A DNA stretch of 63,649 nt, filler included, from Collodictyon triciliatum (taxonomy: Eukaryota): the NCBI GenBank assembly GCA_043381765.1. It is 5 parts of 5 records of this genome, joined end to end, with 100 filler letters (N's around TTAATTAATTAA, not from the genome) between each part and the next. Parts side by side here need not be neighbours in the genome. Positions count along the whole stretch, not along the records: positions 44,804 to 59,639 come from JBHJMP010000927.1; 4 more parts are not named here. The stretch is one strand, 5' to 3'. Positions 13,798 to 62,344 of the stretch are shown here, one piece after another. Position 1 is the stretch's first letter. Every line of letters begins with the position of its first letter. Position numbers and translations under genes: made by a program. Below the pieces are notes generated by a model. The model made no database searches. It saw only the letters and a program-made list of their open reading frames with translations, and was not told the DNA's origin.

Positions 13798-14100
13798 AGG
13801 GACTCTGCCAAAGTAAACCAATGAATCTATGAGCGAGTATTGCTTGCACCTTTGCGCAGTGTTTTTTTCGCACAAAGCAGTTGTCAGTTTTCCCGAGTGG
13901 CTTGTTGATCTCCAAAGCCTCTGTTTTGTCGTGCGCTCGTCTGCGTCGTGCTGGGCGGCCGATGGATCTTTCGTTTGGATTCGGGGCGTATATTTTCCAC
14001 ATCTGTAAGAAATATCCTTTTTCGCGTGTTTGAAGGGTTCGGCGAGTGGAATAAAGCGGATTATTTGTAAAATGCGGTTTGTGGAGTCTTTTTTTTTTAA

Positions 14101-14149
14101 AATTATGATTATCATTATTATTATTATGATTATTGTTATTATTATTACT

Positions 14150-14224
<75 letters not shown>

Positions 14225-14250
14225 ATTGTTATGTTGTTGTTATTATTGTA
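14101..14250. repeat. (ATT)n-(GTT)n trinucleotide microsatellite
   Basis: Directly visible. Confidence 0.9.
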
Positions 14251-15259
14251 ATCTGCGTCTTTCTAGCATACCAGAACGGCTGAAGATATAGATAAAGAAA
14301 ATAAAAGGCTTGCTCGAGGAAAAAGAGTGCCAAATCCTTCCTGTTGCTGGTCTCGCGTGAATCAGTCGTCTGCCTCTTCAAAGAGATAATGTGCTCCAAA
14401 GAGCCTACGAAAGGGCTGGTTGCTTGCTTGTCATCACCCATCGAGTATATGAAGGATGAAAGTATAGCAAGACATGCGATAGTTTGGATATGAAATAGCC
14501 AGGGCATTAATGCAGAAAATCGACTGGTCTTTTTGTTGCGAGCTTCTATTTCATGCTATTGTCATCCACAGAAGCGATATAACCACTTGATAGAATTCAA
14601 CCATGGGTTTCAAGGTCTCTCGAGGCAGCAGCGGACTACCTATGGGAATCATACCACTAACTGGTCAGTTTTTGATTTTTTTAATCTTGTTTTATCTTAA
14701 GAAAAAAGCTCCACATGGCCATCGTCATAGGCGAGTGGATTTTGATCAGATATCACGGCAACGATAATACGCCTCATGACAAGGGCATCGATTAAAAAAA
14801 AAAAACAGAAATTAGGTTATTCAAGGACTCAATATCCGAAAAGGCAGTGTGTAAAAGAAGGAAAGAAAAAAAACGTGTTTGTGTCTTGGAAACTCGACAA
14901 CCTTACAGCTGTTTGTTTTTTTTTTTCAGCCAACATAGAGCAGTTCAGAGCTTTTTGGGATACTGAAAGCAATCAAAGAATATGACGGCATGATTGCCCG
15001 TGATTTTTGAAGAAAAAAACAACTGCATTACAAACTTATTGTTGGAAATATTTGAGAGGGAAGGCAGATGACGGAAATAGGTAAACTTCCAGATAGATAA
15101 GAGATAAAGGGAATTGAGCGATTGTACACATAACCATCTACAAAAAAATATTATAGAAGAGTCTAATACATAAAATACTGGGCGAGAATGCCGACCACCC
15201 TGATTTTTTCCTGAGGTGATTGCCTTTATTGTGGGTGACCTGGTAGGAAAAGCCGATTA

Positions 15260-15791
15260 TTATGCTGATTTATCCGGCTCAGAACCATGTTTGTCGTGTG
15301 CAGAGCCACGGCGCTGTGGGTCCATTGAAGGGTAGTAAATGCGGCTCGGTACCTATGACGTTAACATTACAACGGGAAATAGAGGAAATAGAGAGTCAAT
15401 GTAGACAAGAAAATAAATCGGACCTCTAGACGGGTGAATTATAGAAACACTCACACTCGAGGGGTCCATCACCGGAACTGGGAGATAAGCCGAAGCCATT
15501 CCCCTATGATATGGTCATATCGTTCGTGTGTTAGGATTATCGTGTGTGTTCAAGAGAAGATCAGGAAGTCAGGAGCGCAGATGAATGAGTTTATAACGGA
15601 CATCTGTTGTAAAAGGTAATCATAGGCGAGGATGAAGGACACGCACGAGTAGGCTGGGGATTGTGCAAAGGCTCCAGTCGGCATGGCAAAAAAGTTTGGC
15701 GGTGCTGTGGCATAAACTGGAGCGGAGAACTGGACAGGGTAAGGAAAACGATTCATAACATAACAAAAAAAAAAAAAAAAAAAAAAAAAAA

Positions 15792-15869
<78 letters not shown>

Positions 15870-21949: not shown

Positions 21950-22049
21950 NNNNNNNNNNNNNNNNNNNNNNNNNNNNNNNNNNNNNNNNNNNNTTAATTA
22001 ATTAANNNNNNNNNNNNNNNNNNNNNNNNNNNNNNNNNNNNNNNNNNNN
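21950..22049. other. Artificial contig linker N44-TTAATTAATTAA-N44
   Basis: Exactly 100 nt with a six-frame stop palindrome; identical at four sites. Confidence 0.97.
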
Positions 22050-22813: not shown

Positions 22814-44665
<21,852 letters not shown>

Positions 44666-44703: not shown

Positions 44704-44803
44704 NNNNNNNNNNNNNNNNNNNNNNNNNNNNNNNNNNNNNNNNNNNNTTAATTAATTAANNNNNNNNNNNNNNNNNNNNNNNNNNNNNNNNNNNNNNNNN
44801 NNN
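44704..44803. other. Artificial contig linker N44-TTAATTAATTAA-N44
   Basis: Same 100-nt linker. Confidence 0.97.
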
Positions 44804-44902: not shown

Positions 44903-47900
44903 CTTCCATTCCTTACAAATAGTGAATCCAACAAGCAAAAAAGAAATGACTTCCTAAAAAATTAAACCTCTTCAACAGACATCAGTCGAAAATGATTTAA
45001 TCATTCACTCATATAAATGAATACCAGGTTGAATGAGTCATTTGCATATTAATTTGGTCAAGTCTATGTCTCATGTATTCATCCAATTCATTTTCATCTA
45101 GGCCAATACGCGACACATGAAGAGCACAGATGGATAAGCGAACGATATCCTTTCCTACATCGAACTCATGGTAAATAATTGTATCAAAAATGAATTGACA
45201 CAAGTTTAACTACCATATTTTTCTTCCCATCGATTCATAACAAGACTGAATAAGTCGATGACACCGTTCGCATCTAACATTTCGTGAAGTTCTACATCAA
45301 CCCTTTCATATACTCCAAATACACGAAGCTCGTCCAGTACAATACGCAAGTAAAGGGGATGGCCTGATTGAGCAAGTCAGAATTTAAAGTTGAAAAAAAG
45401 AAGAAGAAAATTCATAAGCTAACCAGTATTTTCTTGTTCACTCAGAATCATTTCCATTTGGTTTTCAGTCAAAGTTTTGTTGAAGCGTTTGAAAAAGGAT
45501 GTGACTGCCTGTCTGATTCCAACACCGTCGAGTTTAGACACTGGAACAACATTCAGTCCTGACGATTTGGCGACCTATTCAAATGTGGTTGTGTTCATAC
45601 AAGCATGTGCCTTCATCAAAGTCATATAAAACAAACATGGCATGATTCGTGGGTATCGATGGTCGAAGCGACAATCGATATATTTTTTGGTGTTTTCTTG
45701 GGAAGCCATCCGAGGAGGTGCACGTGCTTGTATTGTTGGGAATCAACTAACTGATTGAATGCGTCTATAATAAAGACGACTTGCCTTTTCCTATTTAGAG
45801 GTTTTTATGATAAATATGATTTTATACTCTTATTGGTATTGAAAAATTACTCATTTCTTGACGCAAGGTTTAAGATATAATCAAGTCCTTTGCCTAGAAC
45901 AGCCTTTCCTGCGTGAACAAAGTACACAAAAATAGAATTAAGAGTATGAAAACATGGTTTGATTGGGTACTTTAAAAATGGACAATTTATTGGGTAGGTC
46001 ATTATGTCGGCGAATACCTTCTTCAGAATCAATATTTAGGTCAATAACCGCATTTTCGATCAAAATTCGAGCAGCGCGTTCCACCAAACTACTCAAAAAT
46101 GTATCAAAAGGCAATCAACTGATACGTATCATGGGGTTTTTTATTTTTATTTTTATTATTATATTTTCATCGACTATAAGAATCTTACTTTTCCACGTAA
46201 TTACTTAAGTTTGAACATCCGACGAAGTGATATATAACAACCAAATTTATATCCTGGTCAGCATCCAAGTTATGAACGAGTCCGCTCATAATAGCTGATT
46301 TTCCGATGCCAGACTCCGCACCAACAACGGTAATCTCAGAATCATTAATTCCAAGCTGCAATACTGCCTTTTCTTTTAAGGTTGCAATAATACCATCCCT
46401 TCCTTCTAATCCGATTAACCGATGGTGCATAAACTGCTCATGTGCAGCATCTTCGGAGTTTTTGAGCTGTATATTATTACTTACATTTTAAAGAATAGAA
46501 ACAATTTTCCGAAACAAAACTAAATAAAGATTCATCTAAAAGCAGGCAGACAAGTTCAGTTATAGAAAAACTCGTATGCTCACCACTTGATCTGGAAAGT
46601 CCTTGTTTATAGCTTCCATAAGGTCGTCTATCATCATAGCAATAAGTTCATCGGGTGTCTTGTACGACTTGATGTTGAATACATTTCCGATTTTCATTTT
46701 TAAACGGTCCTGATATTCTTTCTAGATTTACGGAACGTACCATATATATATTTAGAAAATATCGTATCTTTATTATATAATTACTATCGCTTTGCACATT
46801 CAAACGCTCAACTTACGTCTATTTTGTTAACTGAGCGGTATAATTCTCGCTCAGAATCAGTCTCAGCAACATAATTGACAGCATGGTCTTCGTCACGAGA
46901 GTAAAAAAATGCACGCCGGGCAATTGCATTTTCCTTTATGGCACCATGCATGATCTAAAGCAAAAAAGTAAAGGAAAATCCAAAGTCCAAAATCCAAAGT
47001 CCAAAATCCAAAATCCAAAATCCAAAATCCAAAAATAAAAAAGAAAAGAAAAAGAAAAGAAAAAAGAAAAGAAAAAAGAAAAGAAAAAAGAAAAAGAAAA
47101 AAGAAAAAAGAAAATGAAAAAAGAAAAAGAAAAAAGAAAAAGAAAAAAGAAAAAGAAAAAAGAAAAAGAAAAAAGAAGATAAAATATGCCCAGTCATGCA
47201 CTAATCGCGTAAAAAAAATCGATTGGTGGAAATATGTGAACCTCGTAATCAGTAACACTGAGGCCTCTAATTTCTTTGAGATATGGAAACTTCAAATCAG
47301 TGTCTGGGTGCCATTGAGATGGATTTTCGTGGTTGGGCGACCAGCCGTAGCGCGAACCAAGTGTACACAGAAAGTAAGGACATTCTTCGATGGCCTCGAG
47401 GCAGCTGGTAACGACCTGTTATATTGAAATAGTTGTTTCTAAACGAGACACATATTATTACTATTATTATTATTATTATTAATATTATTAAGGGGACACC
47501 GTAAAGTAAGAAATCATCCACTATAATTCACACCAGCCCGTTTTCAGATATTTCACTGGTAAGCCCCCAGCGCAGGTCGATGAAAACAAGGATAAGCCTT
47601 TTTTTCTTTGCAAAATCTTTAAGTCTATGGTGTTTTAAGATAGTTATGCAAACGCATAATTGAGGCCAATATATTATATAATGAGGAATATCACATCACT
47701 TGCTCACTTTTTCTCGGCGTTTATGAAGAATTCATCTCTTTCTCTCTGCATGTCCCGGAAAGTGGATGACATGAAGATTCTCAAGACTCTTGTGTCATAA
47801 GCAATATTCCACCTGGTCTTGCCGTCGGAGTAAGCTGAGCCTGGAATTAGGACTCCATGTATCTTCTTTGAGGAGGAAAACTCTTCAACGAGCTCGGCAG

Positions 47901-47949: not shown

Positions 47950-48496
47950 GTTTTTTTTTCCACCACTGAACCTATTATTGTGAACAAGTCATGTTAGGAG
48001 ATTATTGTACCATGCTAATAAAGAATGTTACGTCCAATTACAGCGAGTTTGCTTAATAATCGAATATTCAGAACGTTTTGAAGGATTTTCGCGTCGTTAG
48101 ACTCTCATTATCAATAATCCTCGTAAAAAAAAATCTTAAGATAAAAGATGTGGTATTATTACCAATATATTATAGAGGTAATAATACCACAAAANNNNNN
48201 NNNNNNNNNNNNNNNNNNNNNNNNNNNNNNNNNNNNNNNNNNNNNNNNNNNNNNNNNNNNNNNNNNNNNNNNNNNNNNNNNNNNNNNNNNNNNNNNNNNN
48301 NNNNNNNNNNNNATAGACTATAAAAGGACAAACACGCACCAATATCATTTACATGATTAAGTAATCATTTAGCAACCAATTATGAGAATAACAAAACTCT
48401 CACTGAATTTTATTAACCGATATCTCATTTCTCCATGTTCTCTCCCTGTATTTCTTTGTCTTATAATCGAATGTGTGCTACTTTCTAATCTTCCAG

Positions 48497-51458
48497 CAAC
48501 GTATTGGCCTTGAAGTTACTTGAACTTAAAGCCCAGCAGACGATCACGCATTTGAAGGAATGTCAACAGAAAATAAAAACGATTCAGTCCTTCCGTTCCC
48601 GAGCCATCCAAATAGCGCAGAAAACAATAGATTCATCAGAAGATCAGGAGATTTTTGGATCCACACGTGAAATTCCATGGGGAGTATACTATAACTCCAG
48701 CACTAACCCAACCCGCATGATGCACCTTCTGGAATGCAAAGTGCAACTCAGTAAAAAAGATTCACTTGATGCTACTCGGCGTCCATTTTCCCACACAAAA
48801 GGTTTATCTTTGATCTGTGCTCAATTTATTTCTTCGAAACTTGCTCACAACACAGCCACTTATTCATTCTCTTATCAAAACATGAATGAAAGCAGGGAGG
48901 GTATGGTTCCACTGCCGAAGGCAAAAAAATCAAGGAGGAAAAAAGCCTAAAGTGTCCCCTCTATCCCTTCATTATGAACCTGGAGCTAGATTGAATCTAT
49001 CATCGCTACTATCTTCTCAGGATATGACCGAGGTAGTAGACAGCCAATTTGCTGGGGACATTCTTCATGCAACACCCGGTCTGCTATCTCATACAAAATC
49101 AGAAAAAAAGAAATCAAAAGGACACAGTGACACCCACCAAGACAGAGATGGTAACATCACACCCCACAGCTCAATCAATCTTCATATTTTAAACTCAAGT
49201 ATGCATGAACAAATTCAAAATCAAATAAAAATAATAACCAAATAGTAACAAAATAATTGAATATGCACCAACATGAGATTAGATGAAGATGTGTCATCAG
49301 ACTCCGACTCACTTGGACGAGAGAGACCACCACGAGGCGATGGCAACGGGACACAGCCGACACGACGAGCGATTGCAAGACTGGTACTAAGGCAGCCACA
49401 GAGAGAATCTAAATCAGAACCAACTCCGATTCATCAAAAAGAGGCATACTTAGATGGACCAAATCCCAAGGAAGAATCAATTCACCACCCTCCCACCCAA
49501 GCTTATCCACTCATATTTTCACCCACAAACCAAGCCTCCATGATATCGCCTTTTCAATCGCCTTTGGGACCAAAGTCGTTGAGAATTCCTTCGTTATCAC
49601 AAGATACTTTGAAGTACATAGAAAACGCCATACAAAGCAGAATGTCTAGTTCAAACTTCAAAGACTTGTCTGAACTGTACATGGACTTGGTTAAGTCACC
49701 CATAAGCCTTCCTGGTACTGGTAATTGGTTTATTCATTTATTTTTAATTCAAATCACAAAATTCAGCAAAGTAATATGGAATGTTCAAGGGATTGTGCTT
49801 ACCTATTATTCCCTCTATCAAACTCTTGTAAAGACCTTGGACATCCGCCAACCAGCAGCACGAAAGAATCGCCACGAGCTAGGTCGACTTCGGGTTCCCA
49901 CATTCAAGCAAACACCTCCTCTGAGGAAGCATCTTTGAGGTTGAATGGCTCAAGCATGCGGTCCTCTGAGCTGTCATCTCCGATATCATCATTTGTGGCT
50001 CTTTCATCACCAGCGACAACCCCCAAGGCCCCGTCAAAGACACTGCCAAACATCGATCTAGTCTCCTCCCCAAGACTCAATCCGTCCAATGTAGGCAGCA
50101 GTAAATCCGCGAACTTATATCGACGCCGGTACCGAAAGGACGATTTCGATGTGGATAATATTGTAATGACCCCCGCGACCATTTCAAATAGCCACATTAA
50201 GTTGCTGGAATACAAGGAAATCCATGTGCCCAACTGGAAGGAGTTGAAAGATGAGGGCAAGGCGGAGAGGGAGGCGGAAGATATCAATCCTGATGTATAG
50301 TACTTTCTTTGCATACAAACTCACCGCGCAGCAATATATACACTAGTTTTGCATCATTAGTGTAGCATTATATCTCTTTTTCATGTATTGTGCTGTTCTT
50401 TCGAATAGGAAATCGAGGATATTTCTGATGTCGCATACATGAACCGGCATGTAAAGTATGAGGCTGACGAAATTAAGCGCAATGAACCCTACTTCGAAAG
50501 CAGAAAGAAAGCTGCAGATGCACAGCGGCAAAAAGAAGACATCCTGGAGACTTTGATTCAAAGCTACTGGGTGACCTCAGCGCAGACAGAAGAGACATTC
50601 GAAACATCGCCCAACCATACAGAATCCTCTTTGACAGGAGACCCATCAAAATCCAAGCACCGAAATGAGCCCGCCTGCGAAGACAAAGACTGTAACTGGC
50701 GGGAAATTGTGTCTATTGCAAGCCACTCGGGCAAGAAACGGGGGCGAGCAATCGACGACCGAGGGAATTACAAGGTTATCAAGAAAGTAATCTCGCTCGT
50801 CATGCGGAACCAATTAATAGACCCCGAGTCGGTAGACCTTCAGAGCGATGGAGATGAGCGGCCTCAGTCGCCGTCTGGAGCAAACACAGATGCGACTGGC
50901 ACGTCTTCTGGCTCTGATTCAGAGACTGACACAAGCAGATCCGAACGGGGGCAACAAGTGACGGACGAGAAGATGGCAGCCGGCCCGGCCCACGAGCCCC
51001 ACCCTCCGCTCATATTCCCCTTCTCTTTCTCGCCCACCAACGAAGCGTCCTTCACATTACCGCCATCTCTTAAGATATCCCCGGGACATTTGGCCCCCTT
51101 CTCCCTGGCGCCCACTGCCGTGCACGGCTCGAAAAGCTCCCCAACCGCAGGATTCGCTTCGCTCGCTCTCCACGCACAGCCGGCCGCACAACCAAACACT
51201 CTGCAAATAACCAACGGGAGCCAGCCGGGTGGCGGTCCCCGTGTTGTTTTGAAGACCCCGCTCCGCATCAAAACCTCAGCTGCGGCTCAGCAATCGGCAC
51301 ACACACATGCAAGTTTGTCGCCGGGCGCGGCCTTACAAAACGCGCCCCAGGCAGAACAACCGCCCTCAAACACACCGACCAAGACACAGCCTGCAGAGTC
51401 ACCCGGCCCAAGCAAGCCACGCAACATCATTGTACTTTCTCGCTCCCAAAAATCTTAG
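48497..51458 (+). CDS. KANSL1/MSL1-like PEHE-domain protein (NSL/MOF complex subunit); first exon probably in the N gap
   Basis: RRRYRKDDFDVDNIVMTPATISNSHIKLLEYKEIHVPNWKEL...|EIEDISDVAYMNRHVKYEADE matches the KANSL1 pattern FDINNIVIP..VEKLQYKEILTPSW..EDLSDAAF..H.K.E as I recall it. N-terminal coiled coil; S/P-rich disordered linkers. Confidence 0.8.
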
Positions 51459-51573
51459 AATCCCCATACAAACACCCAGAAATGCACCTGCTAAGCATGG
51501 TTTGGAATGTGGTTTTGGCTTTATTTGCTGTGTGGGCATGTTTCATTCATGGGTCGATATAGAGGATATATAT

Positions 51574-51762
51574 AAAAGAAAAAGAAAAAGAAAAAGAAAA
51601 AGAAAAAGAAAAAGAAAAAGAAAAAGAAAAAGAAAAAGAAAAAGAAAAAGAAAAAGAAAAAGAAAAAGAAAAAGAAAAAGAAAAAGAAAAAGAAAAAGAA
51701 AAAGAAAAAGAAAAAGAAAAAGAAAAAGAAAAAGAAAAAGATAGAGAAAGAAAAAGAAAAAG
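51574..51762. repeat. (AAAAAG)n hexamer repeat between convergent KANSL1-like and Roco 3' ends
   Basis: Directly visible. Confidence 0.92.
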
Positions 51763-51937
51763 AAAGCAAGAGAAAAACTGGGCGTGAGAACTCTTCCTTG
51801 AGGCAGACAGGCTCGACATTTGTGGCCTCGTTCTTAGAGTATGCAACTATCTCAAAGGGATTCGGGCGGCATTCACTGATTACAATATAGGCAAACCCAC
51901 CAACCAAATCGCGTTAGAGTTGACGTGGGCTTCGAAA

Positions 51938-54900
51938 TCATTTCCTCTCGTGGGCCACAAACTTTGTGAATACACGAGCGGCAGTCACGATCTCTTGAGC
52001 TGGAACGTTGTACCTTGACCTCACATCGGGCTGGTCGAGCTTTGATATAATATCTCCGGTCAGTTTCAGGGACTTGACCTTTGGAATATATCCCGCACAA
52101 TTGAGCACATCTTTTTTCTTGCCCATGTAATCAACCAACTCGTTATGTGACAGGTCCTTAATATTTTCTTTCTCTTTTGCGAACGACCCGGAGTCTAGCT
52201 TCTGAGAAGACAGAGTAACAAGGAAAGCGGCCTCGTTGCCTCCTACATAATAATGCTCAAACAAGCGTTGCTCCGTTAATCTGTCAAGGATGCTATCCAC
52301 TGTAGTCCAATACTCGGAGCGAAACTTCTCACCCAGGGACACACATCCATGCTCACGAATCAGCTCGACTAGCTCCCCTTTGTACATTTGGCTCAAGGGA
52401 GAGTATTTTATAGGTAGAAACTCATCAAGTTTCTCATCGCTTGAAAGCACTTTACTGCCAATAATCTCGTCGATGTAGGCCGTCACTAGCTGCAAACCAG
52501 GGCGAAATTTGTAGTTTTGCTTCCAGCAGGCTTTAATTAACCTTACGAATTCCCTTGGGGTTTGAGATGGAACATCAGGTCTTATTCCTGTGATAGTAAA
52601 GCTTTGTGGTTGAGCTTCATGTAAAAATGGTTCAATTCCAGAAAACATAAACCACACAAGCAAACCGAGGGCATAAACACTACTGACTTCCCCTCTGTGT
52701 CCGACGTTTACCGGATCATCTCCATATAAACTAATATCGTCAAGACCCGGCATACATACCACATCGTGTATTTCGGGGGCTTGCCAATTAGCTGTGCCCC
52801 CTTGTTTCCAATCTCCAAATCTTGTGGGTAAATTAGAGCCCACTCTATTTGCACTTCTTCTACTAACTATCCCAAAGTCAGCAATTTTAACAACTTCATC
52901 GACAATCATTATATTGTCTGCTTTCAAATCCTCATGATATAAATCCCGTTCTTGCAGAAACCAAAGACCTTGGCATATTTGTTTGGTATACTGGATAACT
53001 TTAAGAGGCTTCAGGCTGTACTTTTGCTTATCCATCATACGCTTGAGAGAGATTCCAGCATATTCCATAACCATAAAGAAGTCGAGGTCTTTACGATAGA
53101 CATTGAATATTCTTACAACATTTTCACAGATTGAGCATTCGGCCTGGAACTTTGTTTCCAAAATGAGCGACTCAATTACTTCACTGGTAGATAGGTCATT
53201 TGTTTTTTGTATAGTTTGTATCTTAACAACAGATTCAGTCTCATAAGTCTTTTTTGTTCGATAAACTCTTCCATACGCCCCTTTCCCAAGGTATTCGACA
53301 AGTTCGGCTTGTTCGGAGACATACAAATGAGCCAGCTGAGTATCCATGTATGAAAGTGCAGACATACCGTCACTACTTTCAAACTCTGGTTTCCGATGTT
53401 TTTTAGCACGTGATTGAAATCTATTTGATAAGCCTAATAGAAGATATCATCGAATTAATTGTTTCCCCAACAAACAACAATAGCCATGGGTATAGTTTAT
53501 ACATTTTTATATATACCATACCTTCTTCGAGAAAAACATGCCCTCTCCTCACATTTTTGATATCTAATTCGTGGCCCACAGAACACTTTGTGATTTCTGC
53601 ATTTTCATAAAGAACGGGTAGCTGAAGGAAACCCTTTGTATCTTTTGCGCGGCATTCATAGCAATCCATCCTGCAAAACTTTATAAAATTTGGTCTAATA
53701 GATGCTATTTGTTGTTTCAAAAATGTGGTGGCTCTAAAAATGTCTATGAAATGGACGTTTTCTCTCATCTGATACTTGCGTGTTGTAATAATAATTCTGT
53801 TTTCATTAATCTGGATCAAAACTCGAAGGCCGTCTCCAGCGACAAGTTTAAATCCTAAATCATCTGTATTATCTGATGTATTACCATCATCAAAGGGCAA
53901 CTGTGTGGTTAAGTGGACTAATGAAGCATTCTTGTAAAAATGGTTTTCGTATTGCACTCCAGGTTTGACATTTTTAGCCAGACGGAGCATCTGGATGATA
54001 ATATTGCTTTGATCCGAAGCCTGTATTGAATACTTTAAGAAAAGTTCCATGGATATTTCAGAAACACAATTGGATTCTACATCCTTGTTCCATATGGCCC
54101 TAATATTTTCGGTTTCTTCCATCAAAGATGGAAAAGCAACACACTCGGGGTTGAATTTGATGCCGAGGCCGAAGTGGTCAAAAATATCCAGAATGATAGA
54201 AAACACACGGTCATCGATTTCGATGCTCAATTCCTCGTTGATTTTTTGGTTCAGTTGCGAAATCAGTATGATGCCATTTGAATTCTTTCCTAATCCCTTA
54301 AAGCTAAATACACACCGAAACACATTAATCAGAAACAGGGGGTCAATAAAAACAATTCCTTTCAGTTTCTCAAAATTAGAATACCATATTATCGAGCCTA
54401 AATCATGGAGGAATTTAAGAGCTGATACAGACTTTCTTTCGTTTAATTTCAGCGATTTACTTGTATAGCCATACACCTCCTCGATGTTAATGTATTTCAT
54501 AGACAAACTGAGTTGTTCAAAATACTCTTTCAATTGAACATATGATTTAGGGATTTCTTTGTTCATGTTATCCAATTGTAGCATTCCTTGATATATTGCT
54601 TGCTTTAGTTCGGGAATGCCATCGCCCCTTTTATTACTAACTTGCAACTTGGTATTCAGGAACGTGTGCCTCTTATTTTCTGATTTTATTAATTCAATTT
54701 CCTTCTTCATCTCATCCGCGCGCTGCATAGTGATCTTATCCTTATGAGTCCCAACAATAATTATCTTGGACCCTGGTGCGAAATCATTAAGCATCCTTAC
54801 CCAGCGATCGATATTGTTTTTTCTTTTTCCCGAATCAAGTCGATACAATATCAACACAAGGGCACCTGAGGACAAGAAGAATGGATGCGTTACTTGAAAA

Positions 54901-56641
54901 TCGTCCTGTCCTCCAAAATCCCATATTTTGATGGATATCTTTGCTTGATGGGCACCTCCAAATATGGTTTCATCGACATCTACATGAGCTATTCCATCTG
55001 TTCTATCGATGTGTTCTTCCACAGTGCTTTTAAAGAAAAGGGATTTTTGGGATATTGACTTTGTGAGAGATGTTTTTCCAGCTTCTCCCTCTCCAAGCAA
55101 GAGAAGCCTTCCTTGCGTCCATCTCATAGTACCAGACGAGAGGCCAAAAAGAAAGTCAATTATTGCTTCTGATCCGTGCTTGATTACATTTTCGGGGACA
55201 TTGGTGATAGGATTTCCTTCGATGACAAGACCTCTCTTTAGGAGCTCTAAGTTGCCCATTATAGTCGGAAGTCTCTCGATCTGAGCATGGATAGAACACT
55301 CTGATTAGCCATAACGCTTCTTTTTCATGAGATTATCCATATGACACAAAATTATAGTAATGTGAAACAATAATAAAAATTGTTTTTTATTATTAAAATA
55401 AAGAAAAGAAAACTTGATTCCAACTAATATCCAGATAATGTAGATCTTCCAAGTCTGCAATATCTTGCGGTAATTGAGTTATCTAAGTGTATACAATTTA
55501 GGACTGCATTTAGTTTATAAATTGAACCATGGATTTAAAATTAACCCTATTATGTGATATATCCAGGCTCTCCATCCATTTAAACTTGAGAAGGCATGCA
55601 GGAAAATCAGAGAACTAAGTGGTTTATGAATACTATTAGGAAAAAGAGAAAGGTTATTAAACTTTACTATATGATAAAAATGTGAATACAACAACATTAT
55701 AAATTATGTTTCACTTTATTTCTGCTAAGATTGATTTTCTTTAGATTAGTCAATTGGGAGACAGAACCCTGGAGGGACGTAAGCTAAAAATAAAAAATAA
55801 ATGTGAAAAAGGGTAAAATATTTGAGATATTTATGAATTAAGAGATACTAATACCATAAAACTAATACATACGATATTCTTTTTCTATCGAAGGGGAAAA
55901 ATAGCGTAAATTTTGCAATATAGACCTTATTTAATGACATATCAATAGAGGTGAAGTAATTCCAAGTCTTTATTAAATGAGAAACTGTCACTAATTGTTC
56001 GGCACTATGGACTCTATCATACAAATCCAAAGTCCTCAATGCGTCTGATATTGTCATCTTCATTCTATTCCATTTTATTGCATTAGTCCAGCAAGGTAGA
56101 CAAGAGATACCTCGTGGACCTCGCTTAACGTGAATAACACCATCACGTTCTATGTAAAGGTATTTGAGACCGACGAGACGGGTTATACCTTCAGGGAGTA
56201 CTTCGATCTATTAAAAAAAATTCTATGAGGAAGACATGACGACAAAAAGGAATGTAAGATATAAATAAATGAAAGAGAAGAGAAAAAAAGGGAGAGAAAA
56301 ATGAAAACAAAATGAAAAAGAGTACAATTCTCTTTAAATTACTCTGCATTTTTCTTGAGACAAAAAACAAAACAAAACAAACAAACAAAACCTACCGGGT
56401 TATCTCTTATCTCCAACCCAGTAATCCTTGTCAGTAAGGAGATGGAGTTTGGCAGGGATGTTAGGTTATTCTGATTCAGGTATAGGTCGCTGAGATTAGT
56501 GAGCATTGAAAATCCAAGCGGAACTGCCGTCAGCTTCTTGCAAGAAAGACCGATCCATGTGCATTTAGCAAGACTGCCATCTCCTCCTTTCCTACGTGGG
56601 TTGAGATCTTCCAGCTCCCTCAGCTGATGCATAGCAAGCAT
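51938..56641 (-). CDS. Roco protein: LRR-ROC GTPase-COR-protein kinase (TKL-like, non-RD) with C-terminal SAM-like repeats
   Basis: LRR exons at 55.4-56.6 kb; ROC GEGEAGKTS, TDGI, WDFGGQ, VGTHKD; COR LKFLHDLGSIIW..VFIDPLFL. Intron 53434-53521 joins the two ORF-track ORFs in frame (EEG|LSNRFQ..GMSAL). Kinase LGKGAYG, HEDLKADN, DFG, APE. The true start may lie in gap 56699-57205. Confidence 0.92.
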
Positions 56642-57211
56642 TTGTACCAGCCTCCAGAAAATCGATAAGCAAACTTTCCCTTCGCCTACCGTGTAAAANN
56701 NNNNNNNNNNNNNNNNNNNNNNNNNNNNNNNNNNNNNNNNNNNNNNNNNNNNNNNNNNNNNNNNNNNNNNNNNNNNNNNNNNNNNNNNNNNNNNNNNNNN
56801 NNNNNNNNNNNNNNNNNNNNNNNNNNNNNNNNNNNNNNNNNNNNNNNNNNNNNNNNNNNNNNNNNNNNNNNNNNNNNNNNNNNNNNNNNNNNNNNNNNNN
56901 NNNNNNNNNNNNNNNNNNNNNNNNNNNNNNNNNNNNNNNNNNNNNNNNNNNNNNNNNNNNNNNNNNNNNNNNNNNNNNNNNNNNNNNNNNNNNNNNNNNN
57001 NNNNNNNNNNNNNNNNNNNNNNNNNNNNNNNNNNNNNNNNNNNNNNNNNNNNNNNNNNNNNNNNNNNNNNNNNNNNNNNNNNNNNNNNNNNNNNNNNNNN
57101 NNNNNNNNNNNNNNNNNNNNNNNNNNNNNNNNNNNNNNNNNNNNNNNNNNNNNNNNNNNNNNNNNNNNNNNNNNNNNNNNNNNNNNNNNNNNNNNNNNNN
57201 NNNNNTCCGTC

Positions 57212-59525
57212 TTAAATGGAGACAAATATATTGGCCACCGCCATGGAAAAAGCCACGAAAGGAGACAGCGGTTCTCGAAAGCCCAGGGTGAAGGTATAAG
57301 CGCCTTTCTGTCCGCACTGGAAAATAACACCTAGACAGTGGAGTTTTGTATTTTGAGCCAATGTGTATCAAATGCCATGATGCAGAATTGGTGATATAAG
57401 AAATGATTCCGTAAATAATCTGCCAATAGAAAAAAATAAAGAAAAAGAAAACAAAGACGGACAGAGAGCCTAAATTGCGAATCAGATAAGTAGATGTAAT
57501 GAACTCGTAGTATTTGAAGGCGACGACCTTTCTGTCCTTCTTCCGCTTCATTCCTCAATTGAGCATTTTTAGGAGATGGGATGACGGCCCGGCCATGAAA
57601 ATCTGGGATTGGAGACTCGCCTCCTACAGGATGGACAGGTTTGTTCACAACAATAAAATATGTTTCTCTGGTGACTGAAAATGTAACTATTAGGATAAAA
57701 AAATGATAAAAAAAAATAGCAATTACGTGAGAAACGAGGTGGAAGCGGATTTTCCAGGACTTGAGTTTTGGGTGCCGATGATGAGCGCTTTAGAAAGCGA
57801 GTGAGATTTAAGGAGCTTTCGCTCATATGGATGGGGGCTTCATTTGGGACATTGTCATTGTATAGGGCTAATTTCAGACACCTGGGAACTTTCTTCAACT
57901 AAAGATACACAAACCAGGATAGAAAAGGCAACAACACAAACGTTCAGAAATGAGCATCTACCGAAATAAAGTCGGGTTCCTACGGGAAATGATTGCTATG
58001 TAGTTTTGTGACTCACAATATACAGCGCTGCCACCTCTGATTTTGTGTATCGGCTTATTTTTTTGGATTTAGTCCCCACTTTCTTGGTGTACAAGTAGAT
58101 TTTGAATTTTGTGGCATTCATGTTTGCCCTGGTGAATCAGAAAACAATGCCCAAAAGACACACAGGTATGAAAAAGGTTTGTAATTTGATCTCAATTTGA
58201 GGGTACATTGAATAAAAGAATAAAAGAATAAAAGAATAAAAGAATAAAAGAATAAAAGAATAAAAGAATAAAAGAATAAAAGAATAAAAGAATAAAAGAA
58301 TAAAAGANNNNNNNNNNNNNNNNNNNNNNNNNNNNNNNNNNNNNNNNNNNNNNNNNNNNNNNNNNNNNNNNNNNNNNNNNNNNNNNNNNNNNNNNNNNNN
58401 NNNNNNNNNNNNNNNNNNNNNNNNNNNNNNNNNNNNNNNNNNNNNNNNNNNNNNNNNNNNNNNNNNNNNNNNNNNNNNNNNNNNNNNNNNNNNNNNNNNN
58501 NNNNNNNNNNNNNNNNNNNNNNNNNNNNNNNNNNNNNNNNNNNNNNNNNNNNNNNNNNNNNNNNNNNNNNNNNNNNNNNNNNNNNNNNNNNNNNNNNNNN
58601 NNNNNNNNNNNNNNNNNNNNNNNNNNNNNNNNNNNNNNNNNNNNNNNNNNNNNNNNNNNNNNNNNNNNNNNNNNNNNNNNNNNNNNNNNNNNNNNNNNNN
58701 NNNNNNNNNNNNNNNNNNNNNNNNNNNNNNNNNNNNNNNNNNNNNNNNNNNNNNNNNNNNNNNNNNNNNNNNNNNNNNNNNNNNNNNNNNNNNNNNNNNN
58801 NNNNNNNNNNNNNNNNNNNNNNNNNNNNNNNNNNNNNNNNNNNNNNNNNNNNNNNNNNNNNNNNNNNNNNNNNNNNNNNNNNNNNNNNNNNNNNNNNNNN
58901 NNNNNNNNNNNNNNNNNNNNNNNNNNNNNNNNNNNNNNNNNNNNNNNNNNNNNNNNNNNNNNNNNNNNNNNNNNNNNNAAAAAAAAAAAAAAAAAAAAAA
59001 AAAAACAAAAAAATAAAACAAAAAATAAAACAAAAAAATAAAACAAAAAAATAAAACAAAAAAATAAAACAAAAAAATAAAACAAAAAAATAAAACAAAA
59101 AAATAAAACAAAAAATAAAACAAAAAAATAAAACAAAAAAATAAAACAAAAAAAAATAAAACAAAAAAATAAAACAAAAAAATAAAACAAAAAATAAACA
59201 ACAAAAAACCAGAAACAAAACATACCTGGTTGAAAAGTCACCACGTTTCATTTGTGAGTAAGGAGACGAGGGTGGCGTTAGAGATGCTGTTGAAGAATAG
59301 ATGGATGAAGTTTCATTGAGTCTCGGGGTGGCCACATTGGACGCAGGGCTTGAATTTGAATATTTGGCATCATTCAAAGGATTTTCCGATGCTGCATTTT
59401 CGACTTCAGACTCTGCACCAGAATCAGATAAACTTGACTGCCTGTCTGCGAAAGATTCGTAAACTATTTGGGAATTTCCCTGCTTCCCATCGTTTTCAAT
59501 CTCAACAATAGTGCTAGCTGCGGTC
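57212..59525 (-). CDS. Divergent Tubby-like protein (TULP); 5'-truncated, part of the domain in N gap
   Basis: Spliced: ANMNATKFKIY..SEVAALYI|..VPRCLKLAL..NKPVHP..PDFHGRAVIPSPKNAQL..|VIFQCGQKGAYTFTLGFREPLSPFVAFSMAVANIF*. This follows the Tubby C-terminal consensus SN..GTKF.IY, ELAA, GPR, NF.GR....S.KNFQL, QFG....F.MD.RYPLS..QAF. S-rich N-terminal exon at 59.2-59.5 kb. Confidence 0.8.
58210..59200. repeat. (AATAAAAG)n and (AAAAAATAAAAC)n intronic repeats flanking N gap 58308-58978
   Basis: Directly visible. Confidence 0.85.
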
Positions 59526-59639: not shown

Positions 59640-59739
59640 NNNNNNNNNNNNNNNNNNNNNNNNNNNNNNNNNNNNNNNNNNNNTTAATTAATTAANNNNN
59701 NNNNNNNNNNNNNNNNNNNNNNNNNNNNNNNNNNNNNNN
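59640..59739. other. Artificial contig linker N44-TTAATTAATTAA-N44
   Basis: Same 100-nt linker. Confidence 0.97.
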
Positions 59740-60515: not shown

Positions 60516-62167
60516 CTAGGGGCGGAGGGGCAGGGGCAGGGGCAGGGGCAGGGGGGTGGGGTGGGTGTCTGAGAGGAGGAAGGCGTGGAGGGAGCAGGCG
60601 GGGATGCGGGCGAGGAAGTGGCGGGCGATGGCGGCGAGGGTGTCTGCGTCGGAGGGCGCGCAGAGGGTGATTGCGAGGGCGTCGGGGCGGGGGATGCGGG
60701 CGACGCGGTGGAGGTAGATGACGGGGCCCTTGGGCATGTCGAAGTTGACGAGGCGGGTCAGGCGGGGGAAGCGCAGGCCGCGGGCGACCGCCTCTGTGGC
60801 GACGAGGACGGGGCGGTCGCCGCGCTGGAAGGCGGCCAGCAGCGCGTGGCGGGCGGCGGGGGGGAGGGCGCCGCAGAGGGCGTCGGCGGGGAGGGGGAGG
60901 GCTGCGCGGATGTGCGCGGCGACGGTGCGGACGGCGTGCGCGGTGCTGCAGAAGACGAGGGTGCGGGCGTGGCGGTGGCGGCGGTGGTGGGTGCGCAGGG
61001 CGTGCAGCAGGGCGGGCAGGCGGTGCGATGCGTCGGGCAGGTGCACGGCCAGCTGCGGCAGGGGCGGCAGCGTCTCTCCGCGGGGCAGCAGCCGCACGGC
61101 ACACCCGCCGGCGCGCCCGTCCAGCGCCTGCAGCAGCGGGCCCGCCGCGTCCAGCGTCCGCGTGGGCAGCGTCGCAGACACCAGCACCGCCTGCACGCCC
61201 TGCGCACCCACGGCGCTGCACAGCCGGCCGACCTGCCCCGCAAACGTCTGCATCAGCAGCTGGTCCGCCTCGTCCAGCACCACCAGCCGCACGCGCCCCG
61301 CGTCCAGCGCCCCGCGCGCAAGCAGGTCCAGCAGCCGCCCCGCCGTCCCCACCGCCACCGCCACCGCCGCACACGCGCCCCCGTCTGCGTCTCCATCTGC
61401 ATCTCCATCTGCGTCTCCGTCCGCCCCGCCCACGCACAGCCGCACAGCCCCATCCCCGGCGATGCCCGCGCACACCCGGTGCGTCTGCTCCGCCAGCTCC
61501 CGCGTCGGCGACACGAGGATGGCCTGCGGCTGCAGCGGCCCCGCGCGTGGCGCAGACGGTCCCGGCGTCCAGTCCACCCGCCCCAGCGCCCCCAGCACAA
61601 ACCCCAGCGTCTTGCCCGTCCCGCTGTGGCCCTGCGCGATGCAGCTCTCCCCCGCAATCATCCGCGGAATCAGCCACCGCTGGAACGCACTCGGCTCCCT
61701 GCCCCCCGCCGCCATCCGCCCCTGCTCTGCAAGCCACCCGTCGAGCCCCAGGCCCTCGAAGCCTCGCCCCTCCCACGCTTCTGCCTCTCCTCCAAAATCG
61801 GCGTCCGCAACTCGGTCCGTCTCCTCTCTCTCCTCGCCATGCGTTGCCTGTTCTGTCTTGTCTGCCTCGTCGCCTGAACTCTTGTGCCACAACGCCTCGT
61901 CTTGGTCGGTCCATGTGAACGGGCTGCCGTTGCTGAACAAGCTGAACTGGAGAGCTCTCATGGTCTTTGCTTCCGGTGCAAATCCTGCTGCTTCTACCTG
62001 GCTTCTGAGCTCCATGGTTTTGGCCTTGTTATATCTCGATCGCTTTGTTAGGGAGGAGGGGTTGTCCGTGGATGGATTCGCGCCTCTTGTGCCTAGGAAG
62101 CGTTCAGGGTGAGAATTCAGAATGGTTTGTACCCACCAGGAAACCTTGCTCGTCTGCAATTTATCCA

Positions 62168-62168
<1 letters not shown>
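60516..62168 (-). CDS. Divergent DEAD-box RNA helicase, intronless and very GC-rich
   Basis: Q motif PSAFQ, I GHSGTGKT, Ia SPTRELA, Ib GTAGRL, II DEAD, III SAT, IV LVFC, V ARGLRF, VI HRVARIPR. Start could be 62168 or the downstream Met (MELRSQ). Confidence 0.9.
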
Positions 62169-62244
<76 letters not shown>

Positions 62245-62344
62245 NNNNNNNNNNNNNNNNNNNNNNNNNNNNNNNNNNNNNNNNNNNNTTAATTAATTAA
62301 NNNNNNNNNNNNNNNNNNNNNNNNNNNNNNNNNNNNNNNNNNNN
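62245..62344. other. Artificial contig linker N44-TTAATTAATTAA-N44
   Basis: Same 100-nt linker. Confidence 0.97.

What the first reader, a model, noticed from the sequence alone, without database searches (positions are those of the whole stretch)
55414..55783. Roco LRRs encoded as one-repeat-per-exon 69-nt phase-0 cassettes (possible diversifiable receptor)
Seen: three consecutive exons (55715-55783 LTSLQGSVSQLTNLKKINLSRNK; 55546-55614 FSDFPACLLKFKWMESLDISHNR; 55414-55482 ITQLPQDIADLEDLHYLDISWNQ) are each exactly 69 nt, one 23-aa LRR, phase 0. Every intron falls at the same register (after LxxN-x). The upstream junctions ..IRDNP|IEVLP and ..MSLNK| use the same register. Known: LRR exon shuffling in ROCO genes has been described in the brown alga Ectocarpus as a candidate immune-receptor mechanism. 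Inference: any cassette can be skipped, duplicated or swapped without a frameshift, which could diversify ligand binding in this lineage.
Basis: partly seen in the sequence, partly recalled or inferred. Interest (0 to 1): 0.75.

Follow-up and report, generated by a model that had tools for sequence, protein, structure and literature searches.

The report
One-repeat exons in ROCO kinase gene
Three tiny exons that each encode one leucine-rich repeat of a ROCO GTPase-kinase gene are real and spliced as predicted, but this layout is a known way of building repeat domains and nothing found here shows it is used to diversify a receptor.

Summary
On the minus strand, 55783-55715, 55614-55546 and 55482-55414 are each 69 nt, flanked by AG/GT, in phase 0, and each encodes one 23-residue LRR. 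One 982-nt contig of public run X1 joins exactly at these borders and carries all three exons. Five introns share one LRR register.

The gene model is LRR-Roc-COR-kinase. Its nearest database relatives, 33-34% identical, are two ROCO proteins of the flagellate Diphylleia rotans.

The diversifying-receptor reading found no support:
- The cassettes are old and diverged: 9-26% amino-acid and 35-48% nucleotide identity.
- No relic or reversed LRR exon lies in the introns.
- The repeat order is collinear with the Diphylleia proteins.
- The only transcript contig seen keeps all three cassettes.

Paralogs, minor isoforms and selection could not be tested: no genome is held.

One-LRR-per-exon arrays are already described in brown-algal ROCOs (72 nt), Tetrahymena (90 bp) and vertebrate hormone receptors (69-81 bp). 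The 69-nt, phase-0 register differs from these, so I file it as a new member of a known kind, of low to moderate interest. A frame-breaking 124-nt internal intron, inferred from the same contig, is the oddest by-product.

The parts
56396..56698 (-). First visible coding exon (5' limit unknown: N gap 56699-57205). Holds at least two 23-residue LRRs with no intron between them and ends ..IRDNP in phase 0.
   Evidence: LRR_8 PF13855 E 2.6e-06, 27.5 bits against a cut-off of 27. X1 record 3 covers 56397-56637. tblastn to P0001/P0002, E 4e-05 and 2.5e-05.
56208..56395 (-). Intron, 188 nt, GT..AG, phase 0, GC 0.26.
   Evidence: The acceptor is inferred from sequence and from the arithmetic of X1 record 3.
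55926..56207 (-). Symmetric 282-nt exon (phase 0-0). It starts as an LRR (IEVLPEG..), carries a non-LRR island with the motif LPCW, and ends ..SIDMSLNK.
   Evidence: tblastn over 55923-56207 to P0001 residues 376-463 (E 1.1e-06) and P0002 residues 101-187 (E 4.8e-07). Alignment.
56065..56188 (-). Inferred alternative internal intron of 124 nt (GTATAA..AATAG) inside the 282-nt exon. Its removal breaks the frame and gives a stop two codons later.
   Evidence: X1 record 3 places its letters 1-241 on 56637-56397 and 260-400 on 56066-55926, leaving 18 letters unplaced. These fit base 56396 (masked as a repeat) plus a 19-nt micro-exon 56207-56189, whose last AG was laid on 56066-56065. The translated path stops after IEVLPEE. 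This is an inference: the unplaced letters were not shown.
55784..55925 (-). Intron, 142 nt, phase 0, GC 0.23.
   Evidence: joint 55783>55926 in X1.
55715..55783 (-). Cassette 1: 69-nt exon, one 23-residue LRR (LTSLQGS..SRNK).
   Evidence: X1 record 3 piece with 0 other letters.
55615..55714 (-). Intron, 100 nt, phase 0, GC 0.23.
   Evidence: joint 55614>55715.
55546..55614 (-). Cassette 2: 69-nt exon, one 23-residue LRR (FSDFPAC..SHNR).
   Evidence: X1 record 3 piece with 0 other letters.
55483..55545 (-). Intron, 63 nt, phase 0, GC 0.25. It holds an in-frame stop, so retention would truncate the protein.
   Evidence: joint 55482>55546.
55414..55482 (-). Cassette 3: 69-nt exon, one 23-residue LRR (ITQLPQD..SWNQ).
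   Evidence: X1 record 3 piece with 0 other letters.
55281..55413 (-). Intron, 133 nt, phase 0, GC 0.26.
   Evidence: joint 55280>55414.
53522..55280 (-). 1759-nt exon: last LRR (IERLP..), Roc GTPase and COR.
   Evidence: Pfam Roc E 6.3e-20 and COR-A E 2.8e-13. 33-34% identity to P0001/P0002 over 55289-53565. X1 records cover 54906-55280 and 53799-53975.
53434..53521 (-). Inferred intron, 88 nt, GT..AG, phase 1, GC 0.28, joining COR to the kinase exon.
   Evidence: Frames and splice signals only. No contig bridges it.
51938..53433 (-). Last exon: protein kinase domain plus a tail of about 170 residues with no Pfam match; stop codon at 51938-51940.
   Evidence: Pkinase PF00069 E 2e-33; model translation.

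Best explanation
The three 69-nt exons are ordinary constitutive coding exons in the N-terminal LRR solenoid of a multidomain ROCO signalling protein. The model is LRR array with an 'LPCW' island, Roc GTPase, COR, protein kinase and a short tail, at least 1348 codons.

The strict periodicity (one 23-residue repeat per exon, intron after the 'N-x' of LxxLxLxxN-x, phase 0) is a historical footprint. The array most likely grew by tandem duplication of an exon-plus-intron unit, and the introns have stayed in place since. The duplications are ancient and the units now differ strongly.

The layout makes in-frame loss or gain of a unit possible over evolutionary time, but there is no sign that the cell or the lineage uses it to generate diversity.

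Shown: the exons, their splicing, the domain content, the divergence of the units, the absence of relic exons, and collinearity with the Diphylleia proteins. Inferred: origin by unit duplication, constitutive use, the COR-to-kinase junction, and the role of the LRRs as the partner-binding or autoregulatory part (by analogy with other ROCO proteins, from general knowledge).
For: (1) The exon borders and inclusion of all three cassettes appear in one spliced contig (record 3 of X1).

(2) The cassettes are 9%, 26% and 26% identical in amino acids and 35%, 48% and 42% in nucleotides.

(3) The repeat finder on 55200-56500 gave 7 direct-repeat families. All have two copies, are 16-32 nt long and 71-82% alike. 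None covers a cassette or an intron.

(4) A profile of the 7 LRR units was searched against all six-frame pieces of the window. It recovered the known exons (i-E 6.7e-11 to 4.7e-05). Nothing else within 55281-56395, on either strand, scored better than i-E 23. So there are no relic or inverted LRR exons of the kind reported in Ectocarpus introns.

(5) MAFFT aligns the whole LRR region collinearly with the last LRR module of the Diphylleia rotans proteins P0152 and P0002: two LRRs, the island with G-P-x-G-(I/L)-x-x-(L/I)-PCW, then 3 or 4 LRRs, the last LRR and the P-loop. In the unit-by-unit BLOSUM matrix against P0002, 4 of 6 of our units score highest with the unit at the same position, one of them tied.

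(6) Both differences that one search lists between X1 record 3 and the window (56010, 56492) are synonymous third-position changes in the LRR frame.

(7) Literature shows that such layouts occur in conserved, non-diversifying genes. In eel fshr, 'a succession of 7 small exons (69-81bp)' encodes most LRRs (PMC4536197, passage).
Against: Only one contig of one run covers the cassettes. Contigs drop rare variants, so minor skipped isoforms cannot be excluded.

The run's RNA label is a guess.

The number of units between the island and the last LRR is 3 here and in P0002 but 4 in P0152/P0001. Whole-unit gain or loss therefore does happen in this family.

The same contig appears to use a frame-breaking internal intron in the LRR region, so splicing there is not entirely simple.

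The positional matches of units are modest: 2 of 6 rows are not highest on the diagonal. No significance test was completed.

No paralogs, population data or orthologous intron maps were available.
Confidence: 0.66

Rival explanations
1. The cassettes are a diversification device: exon skipping, duplication or swapping among 69-nt phase-0 LRR exons generates variant ligand-binding surfaces, as proposed for brown-algal ROCO candidate immune receptors.
For: Each exon is symmetric (phase 0-0, 69 nt), so any combination stays in frame. The gene is a ROCO, the family in which this was proposed for brown algae (PMC3341825 section 15; PMC11378527 abstract and passages). Unit number differs by exactly one 23-residue unit between homologs. 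Some alternative splicing seems to occur in the LRR region.
Against: No relic or reverse-strand LRR exons lie in the introns. Four of the five LRR-region introns (63, 100, 133 and 142 nt) leave little or no room for a 69-nt exon with its splice sites.

The cassettes are only 9-26% identical and share no repeat DNA.

The one contig keeps all three.

The order is collinear with distant homologs.

Only three single-repeat exons exist, against 13-17 in the Ectocarpus examples.

The five Trinity isoforms of the closest Diphylleia gene differ only in their N-terminal start, not by internal units.

The alternative event inferred here breaks the frame rather than swapping a cassette.
Confidence: 0.12
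2. The shared register comes from independent intron gains at equivalent sites of pre-existing repeats (parallel insertion at similar sequence), not from duplication of an exon-intron unit.
For: The units and introns share no detectable DNA similarity, so common descent of the introns is not directly visible. All repeats end in a similar codon context, AAT/AAC plus one codon, before the intron. Exon A holds two LRRs with no intron at the same boundary.
Against: Five gains at exactly the same base of the repeat and in the same phase are improbable without a strong target site. The exon ends (AAA, AGG, CAA, AAG, CCG) and the next exon starts (CTT, TTC, ATA, ATC) do not share a clear proto-splice motif. 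A second LRR gene in the window (12048-12934, minus strand) has only 1 of 3 visible introns at this register, so the site is not a general intron magnet.
Confidence: 0.1
3. The main product is not the full LRR protein. The transcript with the 124-nt internal intron removed is the major form. It makes either a short N-terminal LRR peptide or, from the ATG at 56063, an N-terminally shortened ROCO kinase that starts just before the three cassettes.
For: The only contig across this region fits that splice. It then has a stop after IEVLPEE, and an in-frame ATG lies at 56063-56061 in the main frame.
Against: The removed segment encodes the G-P-x-G-I-x-x-LPCW motif conserved in the Diphylleia proteins, so the unspliced form must be translated at least sometimes. 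The splice is inferred from 18 unplaced letters that I could not read. Mean word depth is only 5.58.
Confidence: 0.1

Closest known systems
Brown-algal (Ectocarpus, Saccharina) LRR-ROCO genes with 'type I LRR exons'
   Same: It is a ROCO gene with an N-terminal LRR array in which single LRRs sit on single short exons of constant length divisible by three, all introns in one register. In-frame unit gain or loss is therefore possible (PMC3341825 section 15; PMC11378527 passages).
   Different: Exon length is 72 nt there (24 residues, GxxPxxLxxxxxLxxLxLxxNxLx) and 69 nt here (23 residues, ending N-x). The intron register lies about two residues away. The phase is 2 according to PMC11378527 and 0 here. 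Those genes have 13-17 such exons, relic and reverse-strand LRR exons in introns, scrambled recent paralogs and several splice variants. Here there are 3 such exons, no relics, and one contig with all three. Brown-algal proteins are LRR-Roc-COR only; this model adds a kinase. Shared descent of the exon layout is unlikely.
Vertebrate glycoprotein-hormone receptor genes (FSHR, LHCGR)
   Same: A run of small exons each carrying about one LRR. Eel fshr has 7 exons of 69-81 bp (PMC4536197 passage). The layout is interpreted as growth from a prototypic one-LRR exon (Koo 1991; Kobe and Deisenhofer 1994, as cited in PMC11378527). These genes are conserved and not diversifying, which is the reading I favour here.
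   Different: Those are extracellular LRRs of a GPCR, with phase-2 introns (PMC11378527 passage) and variable exon length. There is no Roc-COR.
[quoted passage not shown]
   Same: Arrays of LRR exons of exactly equal length with an extreme intron-phase bias, explained by clonal expansion of an exon unit (PMC6564038 passages).
   Different: Those exons are 90 bp with phase-2 introns, number in the tens of thousands and lie in fast-evolving gene families. Here there are three 69-nt phase-0 exons in one gene.
Diphylleia rotans ROCO proteins (EukProt EP00002; P0152/P0001 and P0002)
   Same: They are the nearest relatives found: 34% and 33% identity over Roc-COR (names). They show the same LRR module with the LPCW island, the same number (P0002) or one more (P0152) 23-residue units before the last LRR, and the same Cys-rich end of COR.
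   Different: After COR they carry DUF4062 and NACHT/AAA-type domains (precomputed Pfam) instead of a kinase. They have far longer LRR arrays, with the P-loop at residue 926 in P0152 and 595 in P0002 against 326 here. Only transcript-derived proteins are known to me, so their intron positions are unknown.
Animal LRRK1/LRRK2
   Same: The order LRR, Roc, COR, kinase is shared. G1, G3 and G4-like GTPase motifs and kinase Lys, HxD and DFG motifs can be read in the model (motif names recalled from general knowledge).
   Different: No ankyrin or armadillo repeats and no WD40 domain were found. Named LRRK proteins are only 20-25% identical over Roc-COR (rows P0017, P0020-P0025). The kinase has no close ROCO relative: the best long hit is 25% identical. 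It works like an LRRK-type protein but is not an LRRK1/2 ortholog.

Membership tests
ROCO proteins | Roc GTPase domain immediately followed by a COR domain | tested here: met
   PF08477 Roc E 6.3e-20 (72 bits, cut-off 27) at residues 66-189 and PF16095 COR-A E 2.8e-13 (50.4 bits, cut-off 35.3) at residues 252-362 of the same 627-residue ORF. COR-B was not reported by Pfam for this ORF.
ROCO proteins | Intact GTP-binding motifs (P-loop GxxxxGKT, DxxG, N/TKxD) | tested here: met
   GEGEAGKT, DFGGQ and THKD can be read in the model translation. Motif definitions are recalled from general knowledge.
LRRK-type ROCO (LRR-Roc-COR-kinase) | Protein kinase domain C-terminal to COR in the same polypeptide | tested here: inconclusive
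   Pkinase E 2e-33 lies in the next ORF downstream. It is joined by an inferred 88-nt GT-AG phase-1 intron of intron-like GC 0.28. No transcript contig bridges the junction.
LRRK1/LRRK2 orthologs | N-terminal ankyrin/armadillo repeats and a C-terminal WD40 domain; close kinase and Roc-COR similarity | tested here: not met
   No ANK, ARM or WD40 hit at E up to 0.01 in the four pieces scanned. Named LRRK proteins are 20-25% identical. The kinase's best long relative is 25% identical. The N-terminus may be incomplete because of the N gap at 56699-57205.
Ectocarpus-type shuffling LRR-ROCO (Zambounis 2012) | Each LRR on its own exon of constant length, all introns in register | tested here: met
   Met only in part and with other parameters. 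Three of about 7 visible units are single 69-nt exons and 5 introns are in one register. The published type is 72 nt with a different boundary.
Ectocarpus-type shuffling LRR-ROCO (Zambounis 2012) | Relic or intact non-coding LRR exons in the introns, also on the opposite strand | tested here: not met
   In the profile search of all six-frame pieces of 15 residues or more, nothing in 55281-56395 apart from the known exons scored better than i-E 23. A motif scan gave no extra hit there except one inside an AT-rich intron frame at 55370 that lacks the rest of the repeat.
Ectocarpus-type shuffling LRR-ROCO (Zambounis 2012) | Recent paralogs whose LRR domains are rearranged; intergenic recombination with other LRR loci | not testable with these tools
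   No whole genome is held. The window has no second ROCO (tblastn of P0001/P0002). No database protein is closer than 34%.
Ectocarpus-type shuffling LRR-ROCO (Teng 2024) | Several splice variants with different LRR-exon combinations | tested here: inconclusive
   One contig, with all three cassettes present. Contigs cannot show absence of rare forms. No listed run is on record as RNA.
Ectocarpus-type shuffling LRR-ROCO | Diversifying selection on LRR residues | not testable with these tools
   No paralogs or orthologs close enough for dN/dS were found. The only polymorphism data are the 2 differences that one search lists between the X1 contig and the window, both synonymous and outside the cassettes.

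The most novel reading that the evidence does not exclude
In this poorly sampled eukaryotic lineage a ROCO kinase has independently arrived at a modular LRR gene layout (69 nt, phase 0, a register not reported for brown algae, Tetrahymena or vertebrate receptors). It uses splicing within the LRR region to set how much of the LRR solenoid the protein carries. That could work by in-frame use of the three cassettes, by the frame-breaking 124-nt internal intron that switches between a full-length and an N-terminally shortened or silenced product, or by both.
Probability: 0.12. Interest if true: 0.6.

Novelty: new member of a known kind. Interest (0 to 1): 0.25.

Why it matters
If the cassettes were used combinatorially, this would be a second, independent case of a ROCO-based variable receptor outside brown algae. 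That would bear on how often eukaryotes invent diversified intracellular LRR sensors.

As it stands, the locus is a clean, transcript-supported example of an LRR array that keeps the intron pattern of its growth by unit duplication. It sits in a ROCO family (LRR with LPCW island, Roc, COR) so far seen only in Diphylleia transcriptomes, here combined with a kinase. Its practical value is as an annotation anchor, since exact 69-nt micro-exons are easily missed by gene finders, and as a search key for a genome-wide survey.

Tried and rejected
- **Whole genome and earlier notes.** Paralogs and neighbouring reports were therefore not seen.

- **RNA runs.** No RNA holder is listed. 12 runs are listed, none on record as RNA. 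10 hold a small share of the words (0.05-0.16). X1 is 'RNA? (a guess)'. Laying X1, X11, X12 and X2 at 85% likeness gave 8, 0, 6 and 5 laid records. Only 2 X1 records are 99% alike or more. The X12 and X2 pieces are short (21-151 nt). All but one (X2 record 10, 151 nt at 52446-52596, no other letters) are partial matches with other letters, over the conserved Roc and kinase parts or AT-rich introns. I draw nothing from them. Parts of the gene without cover carry no meaning.

- **Genomic relatives, to compare intron positions.** One metagenome scan returned 75 loci, all 20-33% identical. In the 14 best by tblastn, the match runs from the LRRs into Roc-COR in one or two long blocks of 88-711 aligned residues, with no short-exon pattern. 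They are no help for exon structure.

- **Lineage.** The 70%-GC DEAD-box ORF has no relative above 37% identity. The kinase exon has none above 29%. The Atlas gave only generic ROCO clusters, and Rfam gave 0 matches. The nearest proteins are from Diphylleia rotans.

- **Diphylleia Trinity isoforms as a proxy for cassette splicing.** The 5 members of the P0001 cluster differ only by where they start or end, with no internal 23-residue indel.

- **Second LRR gene of the window (12048-12934, minus strand).** Only 1 of 3 visible introns is at the N-x register, so the pattern is not a general habit of this genome's LRR genes.

- **Permutation test of unit collinearity.** I stopped that step, so one search's matrix stands without a significance value.

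- **Scan coverage.** Exon A's six-frame piece was left out of the relic scan, because its stop-to-stop piece is more than 30% X from the N gap.

- **Papers.** Supplements were not opened. Supplementary tables of PMC3341825 and PMC11378527 may list exon phases and further taxa that bear on the comparison. A search for '69 bp', 'leucine-rich repeat', 'exons' and 'phase 0' (38 papers hold 3 of the 4 terms, 12 listed) showed no title or abstract describing 69-nt phase-0 LRR exon arrays. That one search is the only basis for calling this register unreported.
Full report
**What is there.** The window is eukaryotic DNA of about 35% GC with short AT-rich introns and several N gaps. No whole genome is held for it. 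On the minus strand between 56698 and 51938 lies one gene.

They are 55783-55715, 55614-55546 and 55482-55414. Each is preceded by AG and followed by GT, begins and ends on a codon boundary, and translates to the three 23-residue peptides quoted.

The exon before them (56207-55926, 282 nt) and the end of the exon before that (..56396) are also bounded in phase 0 at the same point of the repeat. So is the junction after cassette 3 (55414|55280). Five introns of 188, 142, 100, 63 and 133 nt, GC 0.23-0.26 against 0.33-0.47 in exons, therefore sit directly after the 'N-x' that closes an LxxLxLxxN-x unit. The next exon opens with (L/I/F)-x-x-(L/F)-P.

**Transcript evidence.** The look-up of sequencing runs listed 12 runs, none on record as RNA. 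Run X1 ('RNA?', a guess) held 0.16 of the words. Laid on 51900-56698, its record 3 is 982 nt with 4 other letters in all. It falls into six pieces:
- 56397-56637
- 55926-56066
- 55715-55783
- 55546-55614
- 55414-55482
- 54906-55280

The joints are 55783>55926, 55614>55715, 55482>55546 and 55280>55414, and the skipped parts end CT..AC on the + strand, i.e. GT..AG on the gene's strand. The three 69-nt exons are thus real, exactly as delimited, and all three are present in this product.

The two differences that one search lists between this contig and the window (56010, 56492) are both synonymous third-position changes in the LRR frame.

**Chance.** Given a 69-nt repeat, five introns at one and the same base of the repeat have a chance probability of about (1/69)^4 = 4e-8 (my arithmetic). 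The equal exon length follows automatically from the shared register and 23-residue units. The regularity is real, but partial. Exon A carries at least two LRRs with no intron between them, and the last LRR is fused to the Roc exon.

**What the gene is.**
- Pfam finds LRR_8 in exon A (E 2.6e-06, just at the cut-off).
- It finds Roc (E 6.3e-20) and COR-A (E 2.8e-13) in the 1759-nt exon 55280-53522.
- It finds Pkinase (E 2e-33) in the last exon, 53433-51938.
- The last two exons are joined in my model by an 88-nt GT-AG phase-1 intron of intron-like composition. No contig bridges it, so this junction is inferred.
- The model has 1348 codons and starts at the N gap.
- GTPase motifs (GEGEAGKT, DFGGQ, THKD) and kinase motifs (a Lys in VVKIQ, HEDLKADN, DFG, APE) can be read in it (motif names from general knowledge).

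It is therefore an LRRK-like ROCO by architecture, but not an LRRK1/2 ortholog. There are no ANK, ARM or WD40 hits. Named LRRK proteins are only 20-25% identical over Roc-COR, and the kinase has no close relative among long proteins (best 25%).

**Relatives.** Among 28 proteins with E up to 1e-3, the two best are P0001 (34% identity, 69% of the query) and P0002 (33%, 92%). By their EukProt accessions both are transcript-derived proteins of Diphylleia rotans.

They share more than Roc-COR. tblastn places P0001 residues 376-463 and P0002 residues 101-187 on the whole 282-nt exon (E 1.1e-06 and 4.8e-07). A MAFFT alignment of the region up to the P-loop is collinear: two LRRs, an LRR head followed by an island with G-P-x-G-(I/L)-x-x-(L/I)-PCW, a unit ending ..D-x-S-x-N-K, then 23-residue LRRs, the last LRR, and the P-loop.

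Between the island and the last LRR there are 3 units here and in P0002 (one of them 27 residues long) and 4 in P0152/P0001. In a unit-by-unit BLOSUM62 table, 4 of our 6 units score best (one tie) with the P0002 unit at the same position.

After COR the Diphylleia proteins carry DUF4062 and NACHT/AAA-type domains (precomputed Pfam) instead of a kinase.

**Tests of the 'diversifiable receptor' idea.** The Ectocarpus papers rest the shuffling claim on several points (PMC3341825 section 15 and passages; PMC11378527 abstract and passages):
- one 72-nt exon per LRR in nearly all ROCOs;
- relic and reverse-strand LRR exons inside the introns;
- recently duplicated genes identical except for a scrambled LRR domain (13 against 17 exons);
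- positive selection;
- multiple splice variants.

Here is what I could check.
1. The cassettes are 9-26% identical in protein and 35-48% in DNA. The repeat finder found only 7 short two-copy families (16-32 nt, 71-82% alike) in 55200-56500. Nothing indicates recent duplication or conversion.
2. A profile built from the 7 units recovered the known exons and nothing else in or around the introns on either strand (best other i-E 23). Exon A's piece was not in the searched set because of the N gap. Four of the five introns are too short to hide a 69-nt exon with its signals.
3. The only contig has all three cassettes.
4. The five Trinity isoforms of the nearest Diphylleia gene differ only by N-terminal start or C-terminal end, not by internal units.
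5. The order of units is collinear with homologs only 33-34% identical. This points to long-term stability rather than reshuffling.

Paralogs, selection and rare isoforms could not be tested.

**Comparison with what is known.** One-LRR-per-exon arrays with a fixed phase are an established pattern:
- Brown-algal ROCOs: 72 nt, exon GxxPxxLxxxxxLxxLxLxxNxLx, phase 2 according to PMC11378527.
- Tetrahymena LRR genes: exactly 90 bp, more than 98% phase-2 introns, explained by clonal expansion of an exon (PMC6564038 passages).
- Gonadotropin receptors: eel fshr has 7 small exons of 69-81 bp (PMC4536197 passage), with phase 2 and a one-LRR prototypic exon according to PMC11378527.

The last case shows that this layout is compatible with a conserved, single-function receptor.

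The present case differs in unit length (69 nt), phase (0) and boundary (after N-x rather than after N-x-L-x). It is therefore not the same intron position as in brown algae and most likely arose independently. I found no paper describing this particular register. That rests on one search (38 papers hold 3 of the 4 terms, 12 listed) and on no supplements.

**How it most likely works.** The LRR units form a solenoid at the N-terminus of a GTPase-kinase signalling protein. By analogy with other ROCO proteins (general knowledge, not tested here), this part binds partners or folds back on the catalytic core. The exon periodicity records how the solenoid was built: tandem duplication of an exon with its intron, followed by long divergence. 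It leaves the gene free to gain or lose whole units in evolution, as the 3-against-4 difference among homologs illustrates. I put this at about 0.66, the diversification reading at about 0.12, and parallel intron gain at about 0.10.

**An unexpected detail.** Record 3 of X1 leaves 18 of its letters unplaced between 56397 and 56066. The numbers fit exactly if three things hold. Base 56396 was masked as a repeat. The transcript then uses the normal acceptor at 56207 but a donor after only 19 nt (56189|GTATAA). It resumes after the AG at 56066-56065.

That removes 124 nt, including the conserved LPCW segment, shifts the frame, and gives a stop after IEVLPEE. The next in-frame ATG of the main frame is at 56063. 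I could not read the unplaced letters, so this is an inference. If right, the one contig seen is an unproductive or N-terminally shortening isoform.

**Verdict.** It is a new member of a known kind, of low to moderate interest.

Noticed in passing
window 56065-56188 (minus strand): The only contig across the LRR region (X1 record 3) fits removal of a 124-nt internal intron from the 282-nt exon, leaving a 19-nt micro-exon (56207-56189). This deletes the conserved LPCW segment and gives a stop two codons later. An in-frame ATG follows at 56063. Inferred from 18 unplaced letters.
   Followed up: partly
window 47236-47787 (minus strand): Three short exon-like pieces match the DUF4062 part of the Diphylleia ROCO P0001 (residues 1176-1292, up to 41% identity). 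Pfam DUF4062 gives E 1.7e-06 and 0.0046. They lie about 4 kb downstream of the ROCO stop on the same strand, beyond a + strand ORF region. The domain that follows COR in Diphylleia is thus a neighbour here, which hints at a fused or split gene history.
   Followed up: partly
window 60516-62243 (minus strand): An uninterrupted 575-residue DEAD-box helicase ORF (DEAD E 1.2e-26, Helicase_C E 7.2e-17) has about 70% GC in a window of about 35% GC and lies between N gaps. Its best relatives are only 35-37% identical and are a mix of eIF4A-like and bacterial DeaD-like proteins. It could be a retrogene, a transfer, or a scaffolding or contamination artefact.
   Followed up: partly
window 12048-12934 (minus strand): A second, unrelated LRR gene with two repeats per exon. 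Only 1 of 3 visible introns falls after N-x in phase 0, so the ROCO gene's regular register is gene-specific.
   Followed up: partly
window 48489-51458 (+ strand): Long GC-richer ORFs lie on the opposite strand between the ROCO gene and the DUF4062 pieces. One (50409-51458) has a weak PEHE-domain match, E 2.2e-04, 22.2 bits, below the cut-off of 34.
   Followed up: no
window 37174-37578 (minus strand): An ORF with a weak HYDIN/CFA65-like Ig domain match, E 8.9e-04, below cut-off. If real, it points to a flagellated or ciliated organism.
   Followed up: no
window 21950-22049, 44704-44803, 59640-59739, 62245-62344: Four places each hold two 44-N runs separated by exactly 12 bases. This is an assembly or masking pattern, not biology.
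   Followed up: no
window 51563-51750, 14100-14260, 15650-15880, 58980-59240: Long simple repeats sit next to or inside ORFs: (GA)n/(A)n just downstream of the ROCO stop, CAA/ACA-type runs giving poly-Q/N/T frames, and long T runs.
   Followed up: no
P0152, P0001, P0149 (Diphylleia rotans): Trinity isoforms of one gene give ORFs starting at different internal Met residues within the LRR array (2409, 2099 and 1814 residues). They are otherwise identical. P0001's source name reads 'ORF type:complet' (cut in the listing). This may reflect frame-breaking 5' variants in the LRR region, like the one inferred here.
   Followed up: no
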